Below, in pieces: positions 49,190-62,500 of a DNA stretch of 64,000 nucleotides (position 1 is its first letter; every line of letters begins with the position of its first letter). Made by a program: the position numbers and the translations under genes. Origin of the DNA: Naegleria gruberi (lineage: Eukaryota); the NCBI GenBank assembly GCA_000004985.1, contig GG738845.1. One strand, written 5' to 3'. The notes beneath the pieces were generated by a model. The model was given only the letters and a program-made list of their open reading frames with translations. It did no database searches and had not been told where the DNA came from.

Positions 49190-50215
49190 TTATTTCATTA
49201 CAAACTTGTTACAAAACGTTTTTAAAAAGTCATCAAAAGGAACTGTCTTATCTTTCAAAAGAACCTGCACTATTTCACTATCACCCTTCTTTTCCAAATT
49301 TACATTCAACTTAAACTGACCTAGTTGATAGCTGTCATCTGAGCATCTCTTAATGGTTATATTATTATTTCTTAGGGTTTGTTCTATTGGTTTAATACTA
49401 GCAGTAATCAGCTCATCGATTCGGTCATTCTTATTGGATGTGGATGTTTTGGTTTTTAATCCTTCAATTTCCTTCCTCAGCTCTGTTATCTTATTTTCCA
49501 ATATTAATTTAGAGTGCTCATTTTCACATCTTAGCTTTTCGATTTGCTTCTCCAGATTCATTACATAATTCGTCAGATCCTTCACTTGATCTTTTAATTT
49601 TTGATTTTCAACAAGAATATTTGGAAATACTTCATGAATTTTCTCCTTCAACGTATTCATTAGGAGTAAATGTTCCTTGTTTGTTGAATAAAGAGATTGT
49701 GAAAGAGTAAGATTATTCTTCTGAAGTTGTTCGATTTTATCTTTCATCTGTTCCATTTCTTTCTCTGCTGAGCCAGTCTTGAGTACATTTTGCATCTCAT
49801 CCCAAGAAAGAGCCGAGCTATCTATCGATGTTGATGACTGAGACATGTCAGAGTAACGGTTTGATGAAGTTGTTGTCATTAATAATTTTTGTAAATTGTC
49901 TTTTCTTGTTGAAGAGTGTCCACTGATGGAACTAAATCTACTCGAATTACTTTCGTTACTGACTGTTGATTTTGTATCGTCAAGATCCTCTCCGAATGCT
50001 GAGTTATTGTTGCTGCTACTACTGCCTGTATTTACTAAATCACTCGAGTTTAAATTATGATGAAAATTATTTAGATGATTATTTGTATTATTCGAAGGAC
50101 TATAGGTTTTTAATGATGATGATATGAGGTTTCCATTGGTTTGAATTGAAGTGTTATTGCTTGGTTGATTCGACAAATCCGAAAGCCAACTGAGACCTCT
50201 TTGGTTTGTATTCAT
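49190..50215 (-). CDS. Coiled-coil protein with Ser/Asn-rich N-terminus
   Basis: Likely start MNTNQRGLSW at 50215 (GGGAAAAAATG). The track extends the ORF to 50296 across the tRNA gene, which is an artefact. Long heptad region. C-terminal about 60 aa are globular (KRCSDDSYQLGQFKLNVNLEKKGDSEIVQVLLKDKTVPFDDFLKTF). Confidence 0.5.
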   Translation of the reverse strand: MNTNQRGLSWLSDLSNQPSNNTSIQTNGNLISSSLKTYSPSNNTNNHLNNFHHNLNSSDLVNTGSSSSNNNSAFGEDLDDTKSTVSNESNSSRFSSISGHSSTRKDNLQKLLMTTTSSNRYSDMSQSSTSIDSSALSWDEMQNVLKTGSAEKEMEQMKDKIEQLQKNNLTLSQSLYSTNKEHLLLMNTLKEKIHEVFPNILVENQKLKDQVKDLTNYVMNLEKQIEKLRCENEHSKLILENKITELRKEIEGLKTKTSTSNKNDRIDELITASIKPIEQTLRNNNITIKRCSDDSYQLGQFKLNVNLEKKGDSEIVQVLLKDKTVPFDDFLKTFCNKFVMK

Positions 50216-50272
50216 TTTTTCCCGCTTTAATTGACTACAAACAGCAAAAAAATAATAATTTATTTGATTTTT

Positions 50273-50282
50273 TACATAAAAA
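50273..50282 (-). terminator. Pol III terminator T-run downstream of tRNA-Lys
   Basis: Minus-strand GGTTTTTTATG begins 5 nt after the tRNA 3' end. Confidence 0.6.
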
Positions 50283-50287
50283 ACCAA

Positions 50288-50360
50288 TCGCCCCACGTGG
50301 GGCTCGAACCCACGACCGTTGGATTAAAAGTCCAACGCTCTACCGACTGAGCTAGCGGGG
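50288..50360 (-). tRNA. tRNA-Lys (anticodon UUU), 73 nt
   Basis: Minus-strand sequence GCCCCGCTAGCTCAGTCGGTAGAGCGTTGGACTTTTAATCCAACGGTCGTGGGTTCGAGCCCCACGTGGGGCG folds as a canonical cloverleaf with a 7-bp acceptor stem (one G-U). A box TAGCTCAGTCGG. Anticodon loop CTTTTAA. B box GGTTCGAGCCC. No CCA encoded. A T6 run follows 5 nt downstream (Pol III terminator). Confidence 0.9.
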
Positions 50361-50447
50361 CTGCTCGTAAACTAATTATAATAATCCGTATTATATTGGA
50401 ACACAATAAATTTTTCGCTAGTGGTTTTTACATCAATCTCTGGTTAA

Positions 50448-53797: not shown

Positions 53798-54168
53798 TGT
53801 TCGTTTGTTGTTGTGTAGCAGCAAGCTGCTAGCTGATTTTGAACCTGCGGGTATCCGATTTATCATTGTATTTAATTAGAATTATTCATAATTATTGTGA
53901 GTGTAATCATCAAGAAAATCCACCTATTATTTAATTGAAAACTGTTATAATACAACTGTACTGCTATTTTTTAATAAAATGAATTTTTATATCCAATGGA
54001 TAACACGTGTCTATTCTTACCAATGACATGGTTTATATTGAAGAACAAGAGATAGGATACTAGAGACGACTACAAACTAATTGTATAGTGTTTACTGAGG
54101 AAAGTCATAATAACCTTTGATTCATCGAGCAGTGATTGTATGAATCATGTCTTGCGCGCCAAAAAAAA

Positions 54169-57100
54169 ATGGCTTCCTCTTCTCAGCCAAGCATATTGTC
54201 ATTAGTAGAGAGGCTTTGTCGAAAACTTCTGTCCGGTCAGCAACAGTATAATTCTTATTCGGAAACACATGGTTGGTCATATAGTAAATTCTCAACTCAA
54301 ATTGTTGTTAACCAAGATAATTCCGATAGAGTTAGTGAAAAACTTGTAAAGAACACCAAAAGGACTTGTTTTTCTATCCTGATAGATAGGAATGAAAATG
54401 TAGGTTATATTGTTCTGTTAAAGGATTTATCATATTTAGTATATTCCCCCATTCGATTTTTCTGAATCATCAGATCAATTTCCATCTAAACTTTGTGAAT
54501 TGGATTATAGAATAGATACCCTGGTATGCACACTCAAATTGAGAGGTCAAGAGTCGACAGCCCAAAAAATTGAGCGTTTATTTCAATCCCTAAAACTATT
54601 GGATATGAAAATGAGCTCATTTCTTCTTCTTTTATTTAATGATTTAATTTCTCAAAACATTGACCAAAATTATGAGGAAAATAATTTAATTTTTGATATT
54701 TCATCCATTCAATCAGTTAGTGGAGAAAGTAAAAATTCAATGATATTGGAGGATTTGAATTTAAGTAGCCAATCTGATTTTTTCCCCAATGTACTTGATT
54801 GTGCCAGCAATACTCAATCTAATACTAGTTTATATTCAATGCAACCACTTTCAAAGATTGAAGGCTTCTTTGAAAATTTTGAATATTCTGACATATCAAG
54901 TCTAAAGAGACCACTAAGTGATTTTCAATCAGTTTTAAAATTGAAACCAGAAAAAAAGAAGCGATCTATCTATTTCACAGAACAAAGCAGTGACAAACTT
55001 TTTGAACACAAACATTATTTTGAGAGACTTTGTTTTGGATTGAATCCTCAACAAATACAAGAGTCTGATCTTGTAAATTTTGGCATATTAGCCCTACAAG
55101 GTATTTCATCGGATGTATTTATTTGGGATTCTGTAAAGTTTTGCTTTAAAATTCAACCAGTGAGGATAAAGACATTATCATTTCTAGGACTACGACAATC
55201 TTTGCAGGTAGTGGCCAACATGGGATCACTATTCAAACGTTTAGAAATAATAACAGAATATACTCAACTAGATTTAACCTATACTGGAAAATGCTTGCAG
55301 AGTTGTGGACAAGGTCTTTCTCATGTCATGAATTGGTACAAGTCATGTATACTAGATATTCCAAATATTCTAACTACTCTAGTCTCAGACTATTCAGGAT
55401 GTGATTGTAGAATTACAATTCTTAACTTGATACATCATATTACTCCTTTAAAGCAACGTTTAGAAGTGTTGTCTGAAATATTTGAATGTGACATACAAGA
55501 GAAAAATGCAAATGATGAATTCTCCATACTTCTTACTGATAATATACAGAGTAAGAATCTGTATATATCTAGTAGAGTTAAACAACTGCCCAAGGGAGCA
55601 AAGCTCATCAATTTAATGTATGAAAAAATTCAATCTATTGAAAATTCAAATAGGCCAGATTCTACGAATATTCTTCTTATATTACTCTACTATACTTTCC
55701 AGCCATACCTATATTGGATAAATAAGTGGATATTTTTTGGTGAGCTTGCTGATGATTTTAGTAGAGAGTTTTTTATTCAAAAGAATACCTCAAATCATTG
55801 TACTGAAATGTGGAATGCTCACATTGTGGATGCCCAACAAATACCTTCATGCATTTTAAAATGGGGAAATGACATATTTACTACTGGCAATACCGTAGGA
55901 ATAATCAAGTCTTGTAGACCAGATCACTACATTCTCAAAGATTTCATTTCCTCAACAATTAAATCTATCACAATTCTTTTCACTGAACAAGATTTGAAAA
56001 TTTATGAGCTTCAATGTGAAAAATTACAAAAATTACAACACAAAGACGCAACCTTAGAGATGAAAACCCAATTACAACAATTGGAAGTAAAAATTAGAGC
56101 TCAAGAGGAAAGACTGAAATTTGGTGAAGAATTATTGGATAGATTTCAAGAAGAGGAGAACAAATTACGAGATAAATTAAAGAAAGAGATCTTGGAAGAA
56201 TACAGAAAGAAAATGAATGTAGATATTTTTGAGGAGAGTCTGAACCTCAATAAGACACTGAATGAAATCACTCCCAAGCAACAGGATGAAGATTCTCTGA
56301 TGAGTGAAGCTCCTTCTCAATTGATTATTGAAGATTTAGACAAGCTGATTGATGATGAAGATGCAACCTTATTAATGAGAGTAGAATCTTTAAGTGTTTC
56401 CAACTTGTTGGAGAGTCAAAGGCCATTCATAGAGTTACCAATTGAGGTAGCAACTATGAGGAGTATTTTTTCAGTATTATTCCAGCAAAAACACATGATC
56501 GACAGCATTTTTGTGAAGATGTTATTTCACGACTATAGATTGAGCGAGTATTTTAGTATTATTAATAATTTTTTCCTTTTTCGAGCTGGTGACTTTCATG
56601 ATTGTTTTGTAAATATTTTGCATGAAGGCATGAAAAAGGGTATTCTGTATTCTGATATTTATATTGTAAATAGAGCTATGCAAGAGGCATTAAAGATTAC
56701 AGGCCATGCAGAGAGAGATGAAAGTATTGTATCCAAATTGAACTTCCGTATTGATGAATCTAAGGTTATTAATTTTTTAGATTACAACTCTGTTACAAGT
56801 CTCGATCATTTGTTATTACATTATGACATTGAGTTTCCTGTCTCGTTAATATTAACACCAATCATGATGGGAAAATATGCATCAATTCATGCACTCTTAC
56901 TTAAAATCAAACGGATCGATTGCTCACTGTTGGATATTTGGACTATTTTCAAGGTAAAGACTAGAATAACCAATCAAAGACTAAAGTATCTCCAACTATT
57001 TAGACAAGAGATTCAGCATTTTATAACGGTATTCAAAACGTTCATCTTTGTAGAGGTTATTGAATCATCCTTTTCTGATTTTGTTAAAGAATTACTTCAC

Positions 57101-57433
57101 CAAAAAGATAAGGATTTGAATATGGAAAGATTGTTATCAATTCATCAAAAGTTTGTTGATTCATTAATCAAACAGTGTCTACTCTCTACATCAGCTAAAC
57201 CTATTATGGATATTATTTTGAAAATGTTTGGATTAATTTTAAAGTTCAAAATTCAAATTGAAAATGTGGACATAACAGATTTGCCAGATACCCATTATGC
57301 AATAATTACACAAACTAGAAAAGAATTTATAGATTGTGCCCTATTTTTGGATTCATTAATGGACAGAGTAGCTCTGCAATCAACAACATCCAAGTTTGGA
57401 AAATTCAGAATGAATTATAAATTTACATACTAA
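54169..57433 (+). CDS. Gamma-tubulin complex component (GCP/Spc97-Spc98 family, GRIP motifs). Two exons: join(54169..54399, 54440..57433).
   Basis: Track ORF 1 reads through AAT|GTAGGTTAT (phase 0 donor at 54400). A 40-nt intron ends ATATTTAG at 54439 and joins in frame to ORF 2. GRIP1-like region, coiled-coil insert, and C-terminal GRIP2-like region (FRAGDFHDCFVNIL..., YDIEFPVSLILTPIMMGKYASIHALLLKIKRIDCSLLDIW). Start in CCAAAAAAAAATG context. Confidence 0.65.
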
Positions 57434-57438
57434 TTTAT

Positions 57439-57867
57439 TTACACAAATACTAAAACCAATAATGAAATTACAAATAAAATTGCAGACATGCAAATAATGT
57501 TCGAATCATTACACAAATCATCAGCACAACAATATAAATTTCTCAATTTTTTACAAGTAGAACTATCTGTGGCCCCATAAATATATTTCACAGTACCATC
57601 AATTACATCTTGCTGAGAACATCCATTATATCCACTCCTACATTTAGCAGCAATTTTTGAACAATAATTGTCAGTATAATTATAAGTGACAACCGTCAAA
57701 CTAGTCATGTTATATCCATCACTAACTCCAGTATAACATTGTTGTGCTCCTTCACATTCGGTGGTTAAATTTGTCAACACACAAACCACAAAAGTAATTA
57801 ATAATATCAGTATAATATTTTGGATTTGTTTTCTAGTGATGGATAATAGTTTCATTTTTTTTAACAT
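57439..57867 (-). CDS. Small secreted/GPI-anchored Cys-rich protein with Ly6/uPAR (LU, CD59-like three-finger) signature
   Basis: Signal peptide (MKLLSITRKQIQNIILILLITFVVCVLT). About 90-aa mature domain with 9-10 Cys ending in the LU hallmark ...LYCCADDLCNDSN (compare CD59 YYCCKKDLCNFN). Then a short hydrophobic C-terminus (MSAILFVISLLVLVFV) typical of a GPI-attachment signal. N-glycosylation sites present. Alternative start at the second ATG (57855, AAAAAAAATG). Confidence 0.55.
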   Translation of the reverse strand: MLKKMKLLSITRKQIQNIILILLITFVVCVLTNLTTECEGAQQCYTGVSDGYNMTSLTVVTYNYTDNYCSKIAAKCRSGYNGCSQQDVIDGTVKYIYGATDSSTCKKLRNLYCCADDLCNDSNIICMSAILFVISLLVLVFV

Positions 57868-57969
57868 GTTTCAATTCACCTTTCATTCTTTTGTCTATGG
57901 AAGCGGAAACATTAGTGAGATATAAAGTCAATACTGATAAATATTGGTTAGAAAGCAAGAAGAAAAAAA

Positions 57970-59471
57970 ATGCACCTTCCCAGAGAATCAACATTTAAAA
58001 GGTCATTTCTAGTGAGTGTTCGGAATTTACTCTTCCAATCAAAGTTTAGATCATTTCTCCTACTGCTATGGTTATTGTTCTTTATTTATTGTAGTTATTA
58101 TTATTTCTTATTGTCTTCTATACAGGGATCGGAGAAGGCAGCGAGAATAAATACAATGCACCATGATGATCAACAAGGCGCTGGTACCACCAATAATATT
58201 CAGAATGATCTGAAGGGCAGCAATCAAAAACCTACTGGTGCTGTTGTGGAGCCATCATCACCTACACCTATCGTTCGTGTAATCAAAAAACCAATTATTA
58301 ATCTGGTAAAAGAGGAGAGGAAGAAAATTGATAATTTGGAAGATTTTAAAGAGAAGGGTGAACAGGAAACAGTTTCAAATTTCATCATTCCAATTATAAT
58401 ATTTACCTACAAACGTGCGGAATATTTGAAAGAGACTATTGATACTGTTTTAAAGTATGTGGTTAATAATTTAAAAATTTAGTGATTAATTGCTGAATAA
58501 GGTATATGCCATCTTCTGGATTTCATATTTACGTTTCTCAGGATGGAGATGATGAGAGTGTTAAAAAGGTTGTGGATAGTTATGGAAATACCATTAAGAA
58601 GCATTTCCAAAGAGAGAGAAATGTCATTATTCCTGATAAAATCTCCAATGTTGTGGCATACTACTCAATTGCACAACATTACAAATATGGAATCAATAAG
58701 GTTTTTGAATCGGATAAAACTTATGACAGAATAATTATATTGGAAGAGGATTTAAAAGTTTCTCATGACTTTTTCGATTACTTTTCAACCATGTCAAGAT
58801 TACTTGATCGAGATACTTCATTATTCTGTGTTTCTGCTTGGAATGATAATGGATTGGAGGAATTTGCACAAAATCCTTCATCATTTTACAGATCTGATTT
58901 TTTTCCAGGTCTTGGTTGGATGATGAAAAGAAAATTGTGGGAGGAAGATTTTGAAGCCAAATGGCCACTCGGATTTTGGGATGATTGGATCAGAGAAGGT
59001 CCGAACAGAAAGGGCAGAGCTTGTATAAGGCCAGAAATTTCCAGAACATTTACATTTGGATTCAAAGGTGGAGCCAGCTCTAACCAGTTTTCAAATTATT
59101 TGAGTAAAATCAAATTGAATACCGGAACAGTTGATTGGAATAATTTTGATATTAATTCTCTCGTGAAGAGCAAGTATGATGAGGAATTGATTGATCAAGT
59201 CAAATCAGCAACTCCAATAACAATACACGATCTAAATGATGCCACCAGAGAGAATACTAAAATAAGAATTGAGTACAAGAGTACAGAGGAGTATTTAAAT
59301 GTAGCCAAGGTACTTGGAATTATGGCTGACATTAAGGCAGGTGTGCCAAGAGGTGCTTACTTGGGTATTGTTACAGTTAAACTGAAACGTGGAAATGTAT
59401 TGTTCATTACTCCTCCAACTTTTTCACCACAAACATACACTAATCTTCCTCCTTTCAAACTTACTCAATAA
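57970..59471 (+). CDS. MGAT1: Alpha-1,3-mannosyl-glycoprotein 2-beta-N-acetylglucosaminyltransferase (GnT-I / MGAT1). Two exons: join(57970..58454, 58502..59471).
   Basis: Type-II topology with an N-terminal signal anchor (FLLLLWLLFFIYCSYYYFLL). Catalytic domain collinear with animal GnT-I: IIPIIIFTYKRAEYL, TVLK|YMPSSGFHIYVSQDGDDE across the splice, EDD (ILEEDLKVSHDFFDYF), CVSAWNDNG, FFPGLGWMMKR, FWDDWIR, RACIRPEISRT, KAGVPRGAYLGIV. Donor AA|GTATGTGG, 47-nt intron, acceptor AATAAG at 58501. Confidence 0.85.
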
Positions 59472-59508
59472 AGTCGTTGTTTATTTTTTATTTAAATATG
59501 AAATTGGT

Positions 59509-62500
59509 TTATCTTACATCGTAAACGAAACGAACTGCCAATAAGGTTCTTCCCATTGGATCAATAAGTTTACACTTAACTCTTGTCTTTGAGAGGAGGG
59601 AATACACAACATCTCGTTCAGGCAGTGTAATAACGTAACGTTCTTCACGAGGCTCCAACTCTGAAACTTGAGAAACAAATTCAATTCTAGAACCAACAGT
59701 ATCGATCTTTTCGTGGAAAGAACATTGTGAAAGATATTCATTGACATAGAAACGAATTTCCAACTTATACTTCCATCTCTTTCTCAATTTGATAAGAATT
59801 GGATTGGATTTGACTTCAATTGGTTTAACATTCTCTTTTTCTTTTTCTGAGGCATGTCTTGTAACGTAGACATAGGCAGCTTCTAAAACTACACCTGGCT
59901 CCTTATGGTTTACACGAACAACCAAATTATTGTTGTGTGGTTCAATAAATGTTTCATTTGCATTGCTATCTTCAACAAAGTTAATATTAACAACATCATT
60001 ACCACCTGGAGAGAACGAGAAAGTATCAGCAATATTAATTGGAAGTTTCTTTTGAGATTTCTTCATGATTGCATTTGATAATACGTCCATAATTTCAGAT
60101 TTCTTATCAGAATCGTACAAGTAATCATATGAACTTGGAACGTGTAAACAAAAATTATCATCGGCAAAAGGACTCATAGAGGCTCCTTCGATTTCATCCA
60201 AATCAATGATACGTTTAACTTTGAATTCTTGTGGATCGATATTATAAATGTGCTTATCAGTAATAATCATGATACGTTTTTGAGTTTTAAGATTCTTATT
60301 AATCTTTAACACTTCAGAGGCAAACAACACTTGAGTATCACCATTCTTTTGAAGGAGTTGTTGAACTAATTTGTTATAGTGATTTGGAAGATAATCACCC
60401 ATATATTCTCTCATCATTGAGGCCTTTTTTCTTGCCTTTCTACCCTTGTATAAATCTGAACCAATACTTTGTTTGACTTCGCTTACCATATTGTTCTTCT
60501 CTTCTTGTTGATTTTCTTGTTTGTTCTCTTCAACTTCCATATTATTAACACGAATGAGAGCACCTGTACTAGTTGGGAAAATTAGTGTTGATTTAACTGT
60601 CAAATCATCTTGGAAATCAAGAGTTTTAACACCCTTTCCTTTGTGAACAGTATAGACAAGTTTATCGTCAACTTGTAATTCTAGTGACTTGTTTTCCACC
60701 TTCTTTTTGGCATCCATAATGGCCTTGATAATTTCAGTCTTTGAAGAGCTTGAGAAAATGTAATCGTATTCACCTGGAACTTTAAGAATAAAGAAACCAT
60801 CTCTCATAGTACTAACACTAATACCAGCAATCTCCTTGAATGGAATTCTTCTCAACACCTTCAAATCATTATCCAAGTTATAAACAGCTTGATCAGTGAC
60901 TAGTAATTTACGATCTTGAACCAAGTAACGTTTGTTAATCTTTTGAACAAGACCACTGTATAATAATTGAGAATCACCAAATTCCTTCTTGATCTTTTCG
61001 AATTGTTTAGTACTGGCAACGTGTAAATAATCACCCAAGTACCATTTGAGGAGAGAGTCCTTTCTTCTGAGTTTTTGACCTTGATAAATATCTTGAACAA
61101 CATTGGTATCCAAATCATTACTCATAACTTCTTCAACCTTAACTTGAACTTCGGCACCAAAATCAGTTGCAGTAACAACATTACCACGAATAATATCAAC
61201 TTCCTTAAAATCTAATCTTTGTTCGAAACCCTTCTTCATTCTGTGTTTAATTGAATTCTTGACGAAGAATTTCATTTTAGCACGAGTGGCATTTGTGAAA
61301 CTTTCTGATAAGACTTTAAGAATTTCAGTCTTTTTGTTACTTTCAAAGATGTAATCATATTCATCTGGAGTGTGAATTACAAAGAAACCATCTGTATATG
61401 GAGAAACTGTAATGGCCTTCAATCTTCTCATTGGGATTTGTCTGTTGATAATATAACCATTTGGATCGATATTATAGATGGCTCTCTCAGTAATTAACAA
61501 TATTCTTTCCTGTTTCTTATACTTTTTGTTATATTTTGTTACAACACTGGAGAAGTGAACTTCTTGATCACCAAAATCTTCAGTGATCTTCTTCATCAAA
61601 TCAGATTTAGCCAAGTGAATATAGTCACCATAGAATTTCTTGTGGAAGGATGTTTTTCTTCTCAATTTCATGCCATCAAAAACATCATCACTTGGTTTTG
61701 AACTAATCACTAAACCTTCAGTCGTAACTTCAATGGTTGTACCTGACTTGGCATTGTAATTCTTAACATATTTAACAGTCTTTGACATAGCTTTAAGTGG
61801 ATGGAAAACAAATTCTTCACCAATATCAACACGAAGAGTCTTGACACGATGATCATCAGAATTTACAGAAGCCACTGCTTGCTTATTAGAATCATCTGTT
61901 GTTGAATTTTCTCCTGCATTGGATGATGATGGATCCGTATTGTTGGCATTATTGGTTGTATTGTCACTGTTAGGAGTATTGGATGGTGCTCCACTATTAT
62001 TATCCTTATTAATGTGTGAGAAGAATAAATCGTACGAGTCACGAATGGCCTTCATCACTTCATTCTTACTGTCAGCTTCGAGCATAATATCATGGAGTTG
62101 TGGTACAGAAACAATGAAAACTTCATCGTTGAGAGCTGAACATTTCAAACTGTCAATCATCTTGTATTGAACTCTCTTTAAAACTGTGTATGTCTTTGGA
62201 TCAACAAGGTAGATTGCAGAAGGAGAGACAACCAATAATTTTCTCTGTCTTTCGCCTGTTTTGAAATTAATTTGGTTTACAGGTCTTTGGAATAAATTAT
62301 CACATTTTTCACCAAATGTTTTTTCGAGAGCTTTTTGTAAATGTTGTTCTGCCAATACTTTTTGTCTGGCTTTGTACTTTCTAAAGTTTCTTTGAATGAT
62401 GGAGGCCATTTCAATTCTTCTCGATGCCACTTTTTCATCCAATGCAAATAATTGAATTGGAGTTTGGAGGAAAACCTTTGATTTGCCTAGGGAATATTTA

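What the first reader, a model, noticed from the sequence alone, without database searches (positions are those of the whole stretch)
57439..57867. CD59/Ly6/uPAR-like (three-finger, LU-domain) GPI-anchored mini-protein in a protist-like genome
A 142-aa ORF has a signal peptide, about 10 cysteines and the near-diagnostic C-terminal LU-domain signature CC-x-DDLCN. A hydrophobic GPI-attachment-type tail follows immediately. LU/three-finger domains are mostly discussed as metazoan, so a bona fide LU protein here would be phylogenetically notable. Alternatively it is convergent. It sits 5 nt from the stop of the convergent gamma-tubulin-complex gene.
Basis: partly seen in the sequence, partly recalled or inferred. 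Interest (0 to 1): 0.55.

Follow-up and report, generated by a model that had tools for sequence, protein, structure and literature searches.

The report
Three-finger (Ly6-like) surface protein in Naegleria
An apparently unannotated 142-codon gene of the amoeba Naegleria gruberi encodes a small secreted, probably lipid-anchored protein. Its predicted fold is the "three-finger" Ly6/uPAR/snake-toxin fold, which reviews treat as an animal invention, so the fold may be older or more widespread than thought.

Summary
The ORF at 57439..57867 (-) is real, and its features are as described. It has an N-terminal signal-peptide-like segment, a C-terminal hydrophobic tail, and the motif CCADDLCN. It has 11 Cys, 9 of them in the ectodomain. 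It lies 5 nt from the stop of the convergent GCP gene.

The window is Naegleria gruberi NEG-M. No N. gruberi protein matching this ORF was found in the protein collections.

An exhaustive HMMER search found only a handful of relatives. All are environmental eukaryotic sequences with 2-5 tandem copies of the same domain. The complete ones have a signal peptide, and several have a hydrophobic C-terminal tail. The family has 8 invariant Cys plus an invariant Asn after the last one; most copies have 10 Cys.

No Pfam model reaches its threshold. However, the only recurrent sub-threshold hits are three-finger-clan families.

Verdict: a divergent LU-like three-finger protein outside animals, with a non-canonical Cys spacing.
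- No specific relationship to CD59 was found.
- GPI anchoring rests on heuristics only.
- Homology and convergence cannot be told apart.
- Function is unknown; the best guess is a surface binding module.

The parts
57439..57867 (-). Complete CDS of 142 aa plus the stop codon at 57439..57441. An alternative start is Met5 at 57853..57855.
   Evidence: The ORF appears in the listing and translation. An identical 138-aa product was called on an ENA metagenome contig that is 99.886% identical to the window.
57772..57867 (-). Signal-peptide-like N-terminus, residues 1 to about 32. It has a basic n-region (K3, K4, K6, R12, K13) and a hydrophobic core I18-L31. Candidate cleavage sites by the -3/-1 rule fall after C29, T32 or T36.
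   Evidence: Hydropathy profile and -3/-1 rule scan. No dedicated predictor was available. A complete relative has a classic signal peptide, MKLLIFLCIYMLISCTYS, and P0006 starts MALHRGALLLAALALLVAG.
57499..57762 (-). Three-finger (LU-like) domain, residues 36-123. It has 8 family-invariant Cys (C44, 69, 76, 83, 105, 113, 114, 119), an extra C38, and N-glycosylation sequons at N53 and N63 (N33 lies just upstream).
57508..57531 (-). C-terminal signature CCADDLCN (C113-N120): the CC-x4-C-N motif with the Asn after the last Cys.
   Evidence: Regex scan. The two Cys, the last Cys and the Asn are invariant in all 22 aligned domain copies. This is the only part that aligns to CD59.
57499..57510 (-). 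Candidate GPI attachment (omega) region N120-D121-S122-N123. N120 is the only position here that fits the simple omega/omega+2 small-residue rule. N120-D-S is also an N-glycosylation sequon.
   Evidence: Rule-based scan only. Inferred, not predicted by a trained tool.
57442..57498 (-). C-terminal hydrophobic tail I124-V142 (19 residues) ending at the last residue. It looks like a GPI-attachment signal. The alternative is a tail-less membrane anchor.
   Evidence: Hydropathy profile. Relatives P0005, P0010, P0011, P0013 and P0014 also end in a hydrophobic tail at the last residue, and P0012 has one 8 residues from its end. In P0005 and P0011-P0014 a Ser/Thr/Gly-rich stretch precedes the tail.
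57868..57969 (.). 102-bp spacer between this gene's start and the start of the divergently transcribed GnT-I ORF. It is presumed to be a shared promoter region.
   Evidence: ORF coordinates. Promoter function is inferred only.

Best explanation
This is a real protein-coding gene of Naegleria gruberi for which no N. gruberi annotation was found.

Shown or predicted:
- The protein has an N-terminal signal-peptide-like segment.
- It has an ectodomain of about 85 residues, predicted to fold as a disulfide-rich three-finger (Ly6/uPAR/snake-toxin type) beta structure.
- It has a 19-residue hydrophobic tail at the very C-terminus.
- The domain belongs to a small family I found described nowhere. Its other members are environmental eukaryotic sequences carrying 2-5 tandem copies. 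In the five-domain members a Ser/Thr-rich stalk precedes the same kind of tail.

Inferred mechanism:
1. The signal peptide takes the protein into the ER.
2. Four disulfides form, leaving one orphan Cys (C38 or C44).
3. Up to three sequons are N-glycosylated.
4. The C-terminal tail is exchanged for a GPI anchor near N120-S122.
5. The domain is displayed on the outer face of the plasma membrane and uses its finger loops as a protein-binding surface, as animal LU proteins do.

The ligand is unknown.

Most likely evolutionary reading: it is a very remote homologue of the metazoan LU/three-finger superfamily with a re-arranged cysteine framework.
For: Real gene:
- The ORF length is far above chance, with 0.06 such ORFs expected per shuffled window.
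- Relatives score E = 7e-9, 1.8e-8 and 2.9e-5 in an exhaustive HMMER scan of 1.84e9 proteins.
- At least one relative is a polyadenylated transcript.
- The organism is identified by an exact match to N. gruberi XP_002683469.1.
- The only database copy of the protein is an ENA metagenome ORF.

Family:
- 22 domain copies share 8 invariant Cys and an invariant Asn, and 16 of the 22 have 10 Cys.
- Members contain 2, 3 or 5 tandem domains.
- Signal peptides and hydrophobic C-terminal tails occur in relatives.

Fold:
- AF2 with the 9-sequence alignment gives mean pLDDT 86.2 and pTM 0.73. All five models score 81.9-86.2.
- The Foldseek top 27 are all three-finger, with probability up to 1.00 and TM 0.43-0.65 normalised to the query.
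- A viral structure library gave no credible hit, which serves as a negative control.

Sequence:
- The only Pfam families hit by more than one domain copy are Toxin_TOLIP (8 of 22), Toxin_cobra-type (6, best 2.9e-4), UPAR_LY6 (5, best 1.4e-3 in this scan and 1.1e-3), Activin_recp (5) and DUF7773 (3).
- The A1 profile hits three-finger toxins in 12 of 13 PDB matches, best E = 0.004.
Against: - No Pfam model reaches its gathering score for any domain copy.
- With the broader A2 profile, RNase 7 and RNase K6 score as well as the best toxin (E 0.009-0.03 against 0.015). Sequence-level evidence alone is therefore at noise level.
- The structural evidence is a prediction from a shallow alignment of 9 sequences. 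The single-sequence model was poor (pLDDT 55.7, mostly helical). AF2 might be primed by the CC-x4-CN motif.
- The cysteine spacing C-x24-C-x6-C-x6-C-x21-C-x7-CC-x4-CN has no cysteine at the canonical position of LU Cys6.
- The ectodomain has an odd number of Cys (9).
- Codon-usage tests do not separate the ORF from off-frame sequence.
- GPI anchoring rests on simple rules. The spacer between the domain and the tail is very short.
- No expression data for the N. gruberi gene were available.
- No relative turned up among the predicted proteins searched, so none from another Naegleria species was seen. No relative was found in JGI metagenome contigs either.
Confidence: 0.7

Rival explanations
1. 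Convergence. The domain really is a three-finger-like disulfide-rich beta fold, but it arose independently of the animal LU superfamily. The CC-x4-CN ending would then be a convergent way of closing a small disulfide knot.
For: - Sequence similarity to LU proteins is at noise level outside the C-terminal motif.
- The cysteine framework differs in its first two-thirds.
- The known LU family is described as metazoan (PMC6600238; PMC11595613).
- Naegleria is phylogenetically very distant from animals.
Against: - Recurrent sub-threshold Pfam hits fall in four annotated three-finger families (Toxin_TOLIP, Toxin_cobra-type, UPAR_LY6, Activin_recp) and in DUF7773, and in nothing else more than once.
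- The HMMER alignments to the toxin WTX and to the Pfam profiles run from the second invariant Cys to the end with matching spacings.
- Most family copies have exactly 10 Cys, as the plesiotypic LU domain does.
- The invariant Asn after the last Cys is shared.
Confidence: 0.2
2. A different fold. The protein is a secreted or anchored Cys-rich protein whose real structure is not three-finger, and AlphaFold2 was steered by the C-terminal motif.
For: - The alignment has only 9 sequences.
- The single-sequence model disagrees.
- A profile of the family matches RNase A-type proteins as well as it matches toxins.
Against: - All five AF2 models are confident (81.9-86.2).
- The predicted strands cover the conserved aromatic/aliphatic positions of the family, such as the K-W/Y-x-Y/F strand.
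Confidence: 0.08
3. Not a gene. The ORF is a chance open frame in the 536-bp gap between two genes.
For: - Codon-usage scores are inconclusive. The score lies at the 1st percentile of in-frame gene chunks for total usage and at the 17th for synonymous usage.
- No N. gruberi protein matching the ORF was found in the collections.
Against: - Homologues score E of about 1e-8 to 1e-9, with 8 invariant Cys.
- The ORF has a complete signal-peptide/domain/tail architecture.
- 0.06 such ORFs are expected per shuffled window.
Confidence: 0.02

Closest known systems
Single-domain GPI-anchored Ly6/uPAR (LU) proteins of animals (CD59, LYNX1, PSCA, GPIHBP1 LU domain; Pfam PF00021 and clan relatives)
   Same: - Overall architecture: signal peptide, one domain of about 80 residues, and a C-terminal hydrophobic GPI-type signal.
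- C-terminal CC-x4-C-N with an invariant Asn.
- 10 Cys in most family copies.
- Multi-domain relatives parallel uPAR and C4.4A.
   Different: - No Pfam threshold is met.
- Cysteine spacing in the first two-thirds is different. Finger I is long (x24), there is no Cys at the LU Cys6 position, and a C-x6-C-x6-C cluster is present.
- The N. gruberi copy has 9 ectodomain Cys.
- The organism is a heterolobosean amoeba rather than an animal.
- Similarity to CD59 itself is confined to the last 13-19 residues.
- The gene is intronless, whereas the typical animal LU gene has three exons (PMC6600238).
Snake three-finger toxins (Pfam PF00087 Toxin_TOLIP, PF21947 Toxin_cobra-type)
   Same: - These give the best sequence-level matches: the non-conventional 'weak toxin' WTX 2mj0 at E = 0.004, aligned from the second invariant Cys to the end, and Toxin_cobra-type at E = 2.9e-4.
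- There are 8 invariant Cys, the number found in short-chain toxins.
- From the AF2 secondary structure, the C76-C83 pair sits between the two long central strands. That recalls the extra loop-II disulfide of long-chain neurotoxins. This last point is my inference; it was not measured.
   Different: Toxins are secreted, have no anchor, are shorter (60-75 residues) and are restricted to squamate venoms. Their second core disulfide closes finger II from its far end, and this family has no cysteine in that position.
Ectodomains of TGF-beta/activin/BMP receptors (Pfam PF01064 Activin_recp)
   Different: There is no transmembrane helix followed by a kinase domain, because the ORF stops at the end of the hydrophobic tail. 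Scores are below threshold.
The immunologically defined 18-kDa 'CD59-like' surface protein of Naegleria fowleri (Fritzinger et al. 2006, as cited in PMC4082629, PMC6723116 and PMC12587302)
   Same: - Same genus.
- A small membrane-bound protein reported to react with anti-human-CD59 antibodies and to bind C9.
- The papers read here describe it only by antibody reactivity and name no gene.
- The mature polypeptide here is about 9.7-10.2 kDa with 3-4 sequons. My own estimate is that glycans plus an anchor could bring it near 18 kDa.
   Different: - This gene is from the non-pathogenic N. gruberi.
- No homologue from any other Naegleria species was detected among predicted proteins.
- There is no specific sequence similarity to CD59.
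- No binding data exist.
- The link is a hypothesis only.

Membership tests
LU (Ly6/uPAR) domain, as defined in Leth et al. 2019 (PMC6600238) / Pfam PF00021 | Scores above the Pfam gathering threshold (24.8 bits for UPAR_LY6) | tested here: not met
   The N. gruberi protein has no PF00021 hit at E <= 10. The best family copy scores 19.9 bits, E = 0.0011. 5 of 22 copies hit at E <= 1.
LU (Ly6/uPAR) domain | [quoted passage not shown] | tested here: met
LU (Ly6/uPAR) domain | 60-90 residues with 10 plesiotypic cysteines | tested here: not met
   The length fits, at about 85 residues. The N. gruberi ectodomain has 9 Cys, of which 8 are invariant in the family. 16 of 22 copies in relatives do have 10 Cys, but their spacing differs from the LU consensus.
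LU (Ly6/uPAR) domain | Disulfide connectivity 1-5, 2-3, 4-6, 7-8, 9-10 | not testable with these tools
HMMER alignments map the family's Cys2-4 to LU Cys3-5. The AF2 strand pattern suggests a different pairing: C44-C69, C76-C83, C105-C113 and C114-C119. The two readings disagree. Only the last two pairs (LU 7-8 and 9-10) are unambiguous by position.
LU (Ly6/uPAR) domain | CC-x4-C-N ending with an invariant, non-glycosylated Asn after the last Cys | tested here: met
   CCADDLCN is present, and CC...CN is invariant in all 22 copies. Whether N120 is glycosylated is unknown. In N. gruberi it sits in an N-D-S sequon and is also the best omega-site candidate.
GPI-anchored protein | N-terminal signal peptide plus a C-terminal signal: a small omega residue, a short spacer, and a hydrophobic stretch ending at the C-terminus | tested here: inconclusive
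   Hydropathy and simple rules fit. N120 is the omega candidate, the tail has 19 hydrophobic residues, and there are no cytoplasmic residues. Relatives have similar tails. No trained predictor (NetGPI, PredGPI) and no check of the N. gruberi GPI transamidase genes could be run.
CD59 (Pfam PF25152; complement MAC inhibitor) | Specific sequence relationship to CD59 beyond the generic LU motif | tested here: not met
   hhalign of the family profiles against human CD59 aligns only 19 and 13 C-terminal columns, with probability 8.6% and 3.2%. The CD59 sequence was verified against PDB 1cdq. Only 1 of 22 copies hits PF25152, at E = 0.37.
CD59 (functional) | Binds C8/C9 and blocks pore assembly | not testable with these tools
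   This needs binding and lysis assays.
TGF-beta/activin receptor (PF01064 ectodomain plus kinase) | Ectodomain followed by a transmembrane helix and a Ser/Thr kinase domain | tested here: not met
   The ORF ends at the hydrophobic tail. Activin_recp scores 11-12 bits against a cut-off of 20.9.

The most novel reading that the evidence does not exclude
The three-finger LU fold predates animals, and this gene is the first molecular handle on Naegleria's GPI-anchored LU-type surface proteins. On this reading it is the N. gruberi counterpart, or a paralogue type, of the N. fowleri 'CD59-like' protein, which the papers read here describe only by antibody reactivity. Its job would be to shield the amoeba membrane from pore-forming proteins: complement C9, bacterial toxins, or its own naegleriapores.
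Probability: 0.08. Interest if true: 0.8.

Novelty: new variant of a known kind. Interest (0 to 1): 0.55.

Why it matters
Reviews describe LU/three-finger proteins as a metazoan family and even speculate that the domain first appeared in TGF-beta receptors (PMC6600238; PMC11595613). A confidently predicted three-finger domain in a heterolobosean amoeba changes that picture. It has the full Ly6-type architecture (signal peptide, domain, GPI-type tail) and multi-domain relatives in other microbial eukaryotes.

This means one of three things:
- the fold is much older than animals;
- it has been transferred between lineages;
- it is an easy target of convergence.

Each is testable with the family profile defined here.

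The finding also shows that small cysteine-rich surface proteins can be missed in protist genome annotation. It further gives a concrete, if speculative, candidate type for the 'CD59-like' complement-resistance protein of the pathogen N. fowleri, for which the papers read here name no gene.

Tried and rejected
- Single-sequence AF2 gave a poor, mostly helical model (pLDDT 55.7). I discarded it in favour of the alignment-based model.
- The word-indexed homology search with the protein and with alignment A1 found only the identical ENA copy. Only the exhaustive HMMER scan found relatives.
- Two of the six hits in that scan (P0008, P0009) are long repetitive proteins with no shared Cys pattern. 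Re-scored with the family HMM, P0009 domains reach only E 0.13-2.4 and P0008 gives no domain at all. I rejected both as spurious.
- tblastn and a motif scan of the window found no paralogue.
- A metagenome-contig scan with the protein found nothing.
- The afdb50 fold library was not available. I therefore could not check whether annotated protist proteins in AFDB share the fold.
- Codon-usage tests, both total and synonymous-only, were inconclusive for such a short, compositionally odd ORF.
- hhalign against CD59 aligned only the C-terminal motif. The specific CD59 label is rejected.
- The broader profile A2 against PDB sequences gave RNase 7/K6 hits as strong as the toxin hits. I do not count PDB sequence E-values as evidence of homology on their own.
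- Comparing the ENA contig with the window found 7 mismatches in 7 kb and an identical protein product. That is too little divergence for a selection test.
- Literature searches for three-finger or LU proteins in Naegleria or protists returned nothing.
- The accession PRJEB11402 appears in no held paper.

Full report
**Observation**

57439..57867 on the minus strand is an ATG-started frame of 142 codons. It encodes MLKKMKLLSITRKQIQNIILILLITFVVCVLTNLTTECEGAQQCYTG...LYCCADDLCNDSNIICMSAILFVISLLVLVFV.

- It has 11 cysteines. One lies in the N-terminal hydrophobic core (C29) and one in the C-terminal tail (C126). Nine are therefore in the ectodomain, not ten.
- The hydropathy profile shows exactly two hydrophobic stretches, at residues about 18-32 and 124-142. 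The second ends at the last residue.
- There are four N-glycosylation sequons: N33, N53, N63 and N120.
- The stop codon lies 5 nt from the stop of the convergent ORF 54500..57433, which carries GCP_N_terminal and GCP_C_terminal domains.
- The start lies 102 bp from the divergent GnT-I ORF.

**Where the window comes from**

The window's 605-aa Atg6 ORF is identical to Naegleria gruberi NEG-M XP_002683469.1. The GnT-I ORF clusters with XP_002683153.1. Both lie on a 1.56-Mb contig.

Other ORFs encode IRE1, Noc2, a DEAD-box helicase and kinases. GC content is 32-35% throughout.

The 142-aa product itself is not in the protein collection. Its only database copy is an identical 138-aa ORF called on a 7-kb ENA metagenome contig. 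That contig is 99.886% identical to the window.

No N. gruberi-annotated protein turned up in any homology search. The gene therefore appears to be unannotated in the reference proteome.

**Is it a gene?**

- ATG-ORFs of this length are expected 0.06 times per shuffled window.
- An exhaustive HMMER scan of 1.84 billion representative proteins with the ectodomain (residues 33-123) found three real relatives. These are P0005 (E = 7e-9), P0006 (1.8e-8) and P0007 (2.9e-5). It also found two spurious repetitive proteins.
- A further search seeded with P0010, a longer copy of P0007, added four proteins of 521-577 aa.
- Codon-usage tests were inconclusive. I attribute this to the short length and odd composition, but I record it as a weakness.

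**The family**

All relatives come from metagenomes, from transcript-like contigs (P0010's is polyadenylated) or from a Logan assembly of a sequencing run, with no taxon attached.

- P0010's contig is a polyadenylated transcript with 29% GC.
- P0006's contig looks like a GC-rich transcript.
- P0005 lies on a 4.6-kb genomic contig.

Relatives carry 2, 3 or 5 tandem copies of the domain.

- Complete ones start with a signal peptide.
- P0005, P0010, P0011, P0013 and P0014 end in a hydrophobic tail at the last residue. In P0012 the tail is followed by 8 more residues, and P0006 has no such tail.
- In P0005 and P0011-P0014 a Ser/Thr/Gly-rich stretch precedes the tail.

An alignment of 22 domain copies (A2) shows eight invariant cysteines, an invariant Asn after the last one, and nearly invariant G, Y and K. 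The pattern is C-Y-x-G ... C-x-S/R-Y-x3-C-x6-C-T/S-x-x-E ... K-W/Y-x-Y/F ... C ... CC-x4-C-N.

Sixteen copies have two further cysteines, one just before the first invariant Cys and one about 10 residues after it. That gives 10 Cys. These two cysteines are present together or absent together, except in N. gruberi, which keeps only the first (C38). The N. gruberi protein therefore has an orphan cysteine.

**Is the domain an LU/three-finger domain?**

*Sequence evidence is weak but consistent.*

- The N. gruberi protein hits no Pfam model significantly. Activin_recp scores E = 0.88. For the ectodomain alone, DUF7773 scores 0.17, Activin_recp 0.48 and Toxin_TOLIP 1.2.
- Across the 22 copies, only these families are hit more than once:

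| Pfam family | Copies hit (of 22) | Best E-value |
|---|---|---|
| Toxin_TOLIP | 8 | 0.003 |
| Toxin_cobra-type | 6 | 2.9e-4 |
| UPAR_LY6 | 5 | 1.4e-3 |
| Activin_recp | 5 | 0.044 |
| DUF7773 | 3 | 0.0043 |

- Every other family appears once only.
- None of these hits reaches its gathering score.
- The A1 profile matches three-finger toxins in 12 of 13 PDB hits. The best is the weak toxin WTX at E = 0.004, aligned from the second invariant Cys to the end.
- The broader A2 profile, however, matches RNase 7/K6 just as well. I therefore do not treat these E-values as proof.
- hhalign against human CD59 aligns only the final CC-x4-CN stretch. The CD59 sequence was verified against PDB 1cdq.

*Structural evidence is strong for a prediction.*

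- AF2 with the 9-sequence alignment gives pLDDT 86.2 and pTM 0.73. All five models agree. The model has five strands and two short helices.
- Foldseek agrees.
- A viral structure library gives nothing credible.

**Cysteine framework**

The C-terminal half fits the LU pairs 7-8 and 9-10, including the Asn: C105, C113-C114, C119-N120.

The N-terminal two-thirds do not fit the consensus in PMC6600238. The first finger is long (24 residues between C44 and C69). There is a C-x6-C-x6-C cluster (C69, C76, C83). No cysteine sits where LU Cys6 would close finger II.

Two readings of the pairing exist.

- HMMER alignments equate C69/C76/C83 with LU Cys3/4/5.
- The AF2 strand layout instead suggests C44-C69 as the 1-5 equivalent. 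On that layout C76-C83 would be a local disulfide between the two long central strands. It would resemble the extra loop-II disulfide of long-chain neurotoxins (the comparison is my inference).

I could not read the coordinates, so the connectivity is unresolved.

**Anchor**

The tail (19 hydrophobic residues, no cytoplasmic residues) and the small residues N120-D-S-N fit a GPI signal by simple rules. N120 is the only position satisfying the omega/omega+2 rule.

Relatives have more classical signals with longer Ser/Gly/Ala-rich linkers. No trained predictor was available. I put GPI anchoring at roughly two in three. A tail-less transmembrane anchor is the alternative.

**Mechanism (inferred)**

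1. The protein enters the ER via the signal peptide.
2. It is oxidatively folded into a three-finger domain.
3. It is N-glycosylated.
4. The tail is exchanged for a GPI anchor.
5. The domain is displayed on the cell surface as a binding module.

The ligand is unknown.

An attractive but unsupported idea concerns pore-forming proteins. Naegleria fowleri has an 18-kDa membrane protein that reacts with anti-CD59 antibodies, binds C9, and is induced by bacteria. In the papers read here it is described only by antibody reactivity, with no gene named (PMC4082629, PMC6723116, PMC8068756, PMC12587302). An LU-type protein is the kind of molecule one would look for. The polypeptide here is about 10 kDa; my own estimate is that glycans and an anchor could bring it near that size.

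Against this idea:
- The gene is from N. gruberi.
- No homologue from another Naegleria species was detected among predicted proteins.
- There is no specific similarity to CD59.

**Novelty**

The reviews I could read treat LU/three-finger proteins as metazoan. Full-text searches for three-finger or LU proteins in Naegleria or protists found nothing.

I therefore rate this a new variant of a known kind. It has the known fold and the known Ly6-type architecture, but in a non-metazoan lineage. It has a divergent cysteine framework and belongs to a small family that I found described nowhere. It is not categorically new, and its function is untested.

**Confidence**

| Claim | Confidence |
|---|---|
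| Real gene for a secreted/anchored Cys-rich domain family | about 0.9 |
| Three-finger fold | about 0.8 |
| Homology (not convergence) with animal LU domains | about 0.55 |
| GPI anchor | about 0.65 |
| Overall statement | 0.7 |

Noticed in passing
window 57970..59471 (+): The neighbouring GnT-I gene is annotated in NCBI (XP_002683153.1, 422 aa) as starting at 58156. The open frame extends upstream to an ATG at 57970 and there encodes a hydrophobic stretch (FLLLLWLLFFIYCSYYYFLL). That stretch looks like the type-II signal anchor expected of a Golgi glycosyltransferase, so the annotated model may be N-terminally truncated. The protein aligns in two blocks (58156..58461 and 58482..59468) in different frames, which implies a short intron of roughly 20-45 nt.
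   Followed up: partly
L001 (ENA ERZ929261, contig k127_381296) = window 54016..61032: A 7-kb contig from a public metagenome assembly is 99.886% identical to this N. gruberi region (7 mismatches, 1 gap). N. gruberi, or a very close strain, was therefore present in that sample. That assembly's bacterial-style gene call is the only place where this ORF exists as a database protein.
   Followed up: partly
L005 (JGI 3300030628), also P0011, P0012, P0014: AT-rich eukaryotic transcript-like contigs from three different JGI samples (P0010, P0013, P0014; P0010's is polyadenylated) encode related surface proteins. The five-domain members carry five tandem LU-like domains (10 Cys in each copy included in alignment A2), many N-glycosylation sequons, a Ser/Thr-rich stalk and a hydrophobic C-terminal tail. 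A signal peptide was seen where the 5' end is complete (L005). The organism is unknown. The gene caller missed the true start (the signal peptide MKLLIFLCIYMLISCTYS lies upstream of the called Met).
   Followed up: partly
L004 1..5 (Logan ERR15302235): The GC-rich transcript-like contig encoding the three-domain relative P0006 begins with TCAAG. This is a very weak hint at the source organism; five bases could be chance.
   Followed up: no
alignment A2 versus PDB sequences: The family profile matches human RNase 7 and RNase K6 (RNase A superfamily) at E 0.009-0.03 over about 85 residues. That is as strong as its best three-finger toxin match. It is probably a spurious match between cysteine-rich sequences, but it was not examined further.
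   Followed up: no
window 57499..57762 (-) and 3 of 22 family copies: Pfam DUF7773 (PF24982) gives the best, still sub-threshold, hit for the N. gruberi ectodomain. It scores E = 0.17 over nearly the full profile, and its best score among family copies is 0.0043. I could not find out what DUF7773 contains. It may be another uncharacterised three-finger-like family.
   Followed up: no
window 50289..50361 (-): A tRNA-Lys (anticodon UUU) gene is the only tRNA in the window. It overlaps by 8 nt the upstream end (50296) of the listed minus-strand ORF 49190..50296, which suggests that ORF's real start is further downstream.
   Followed up: no
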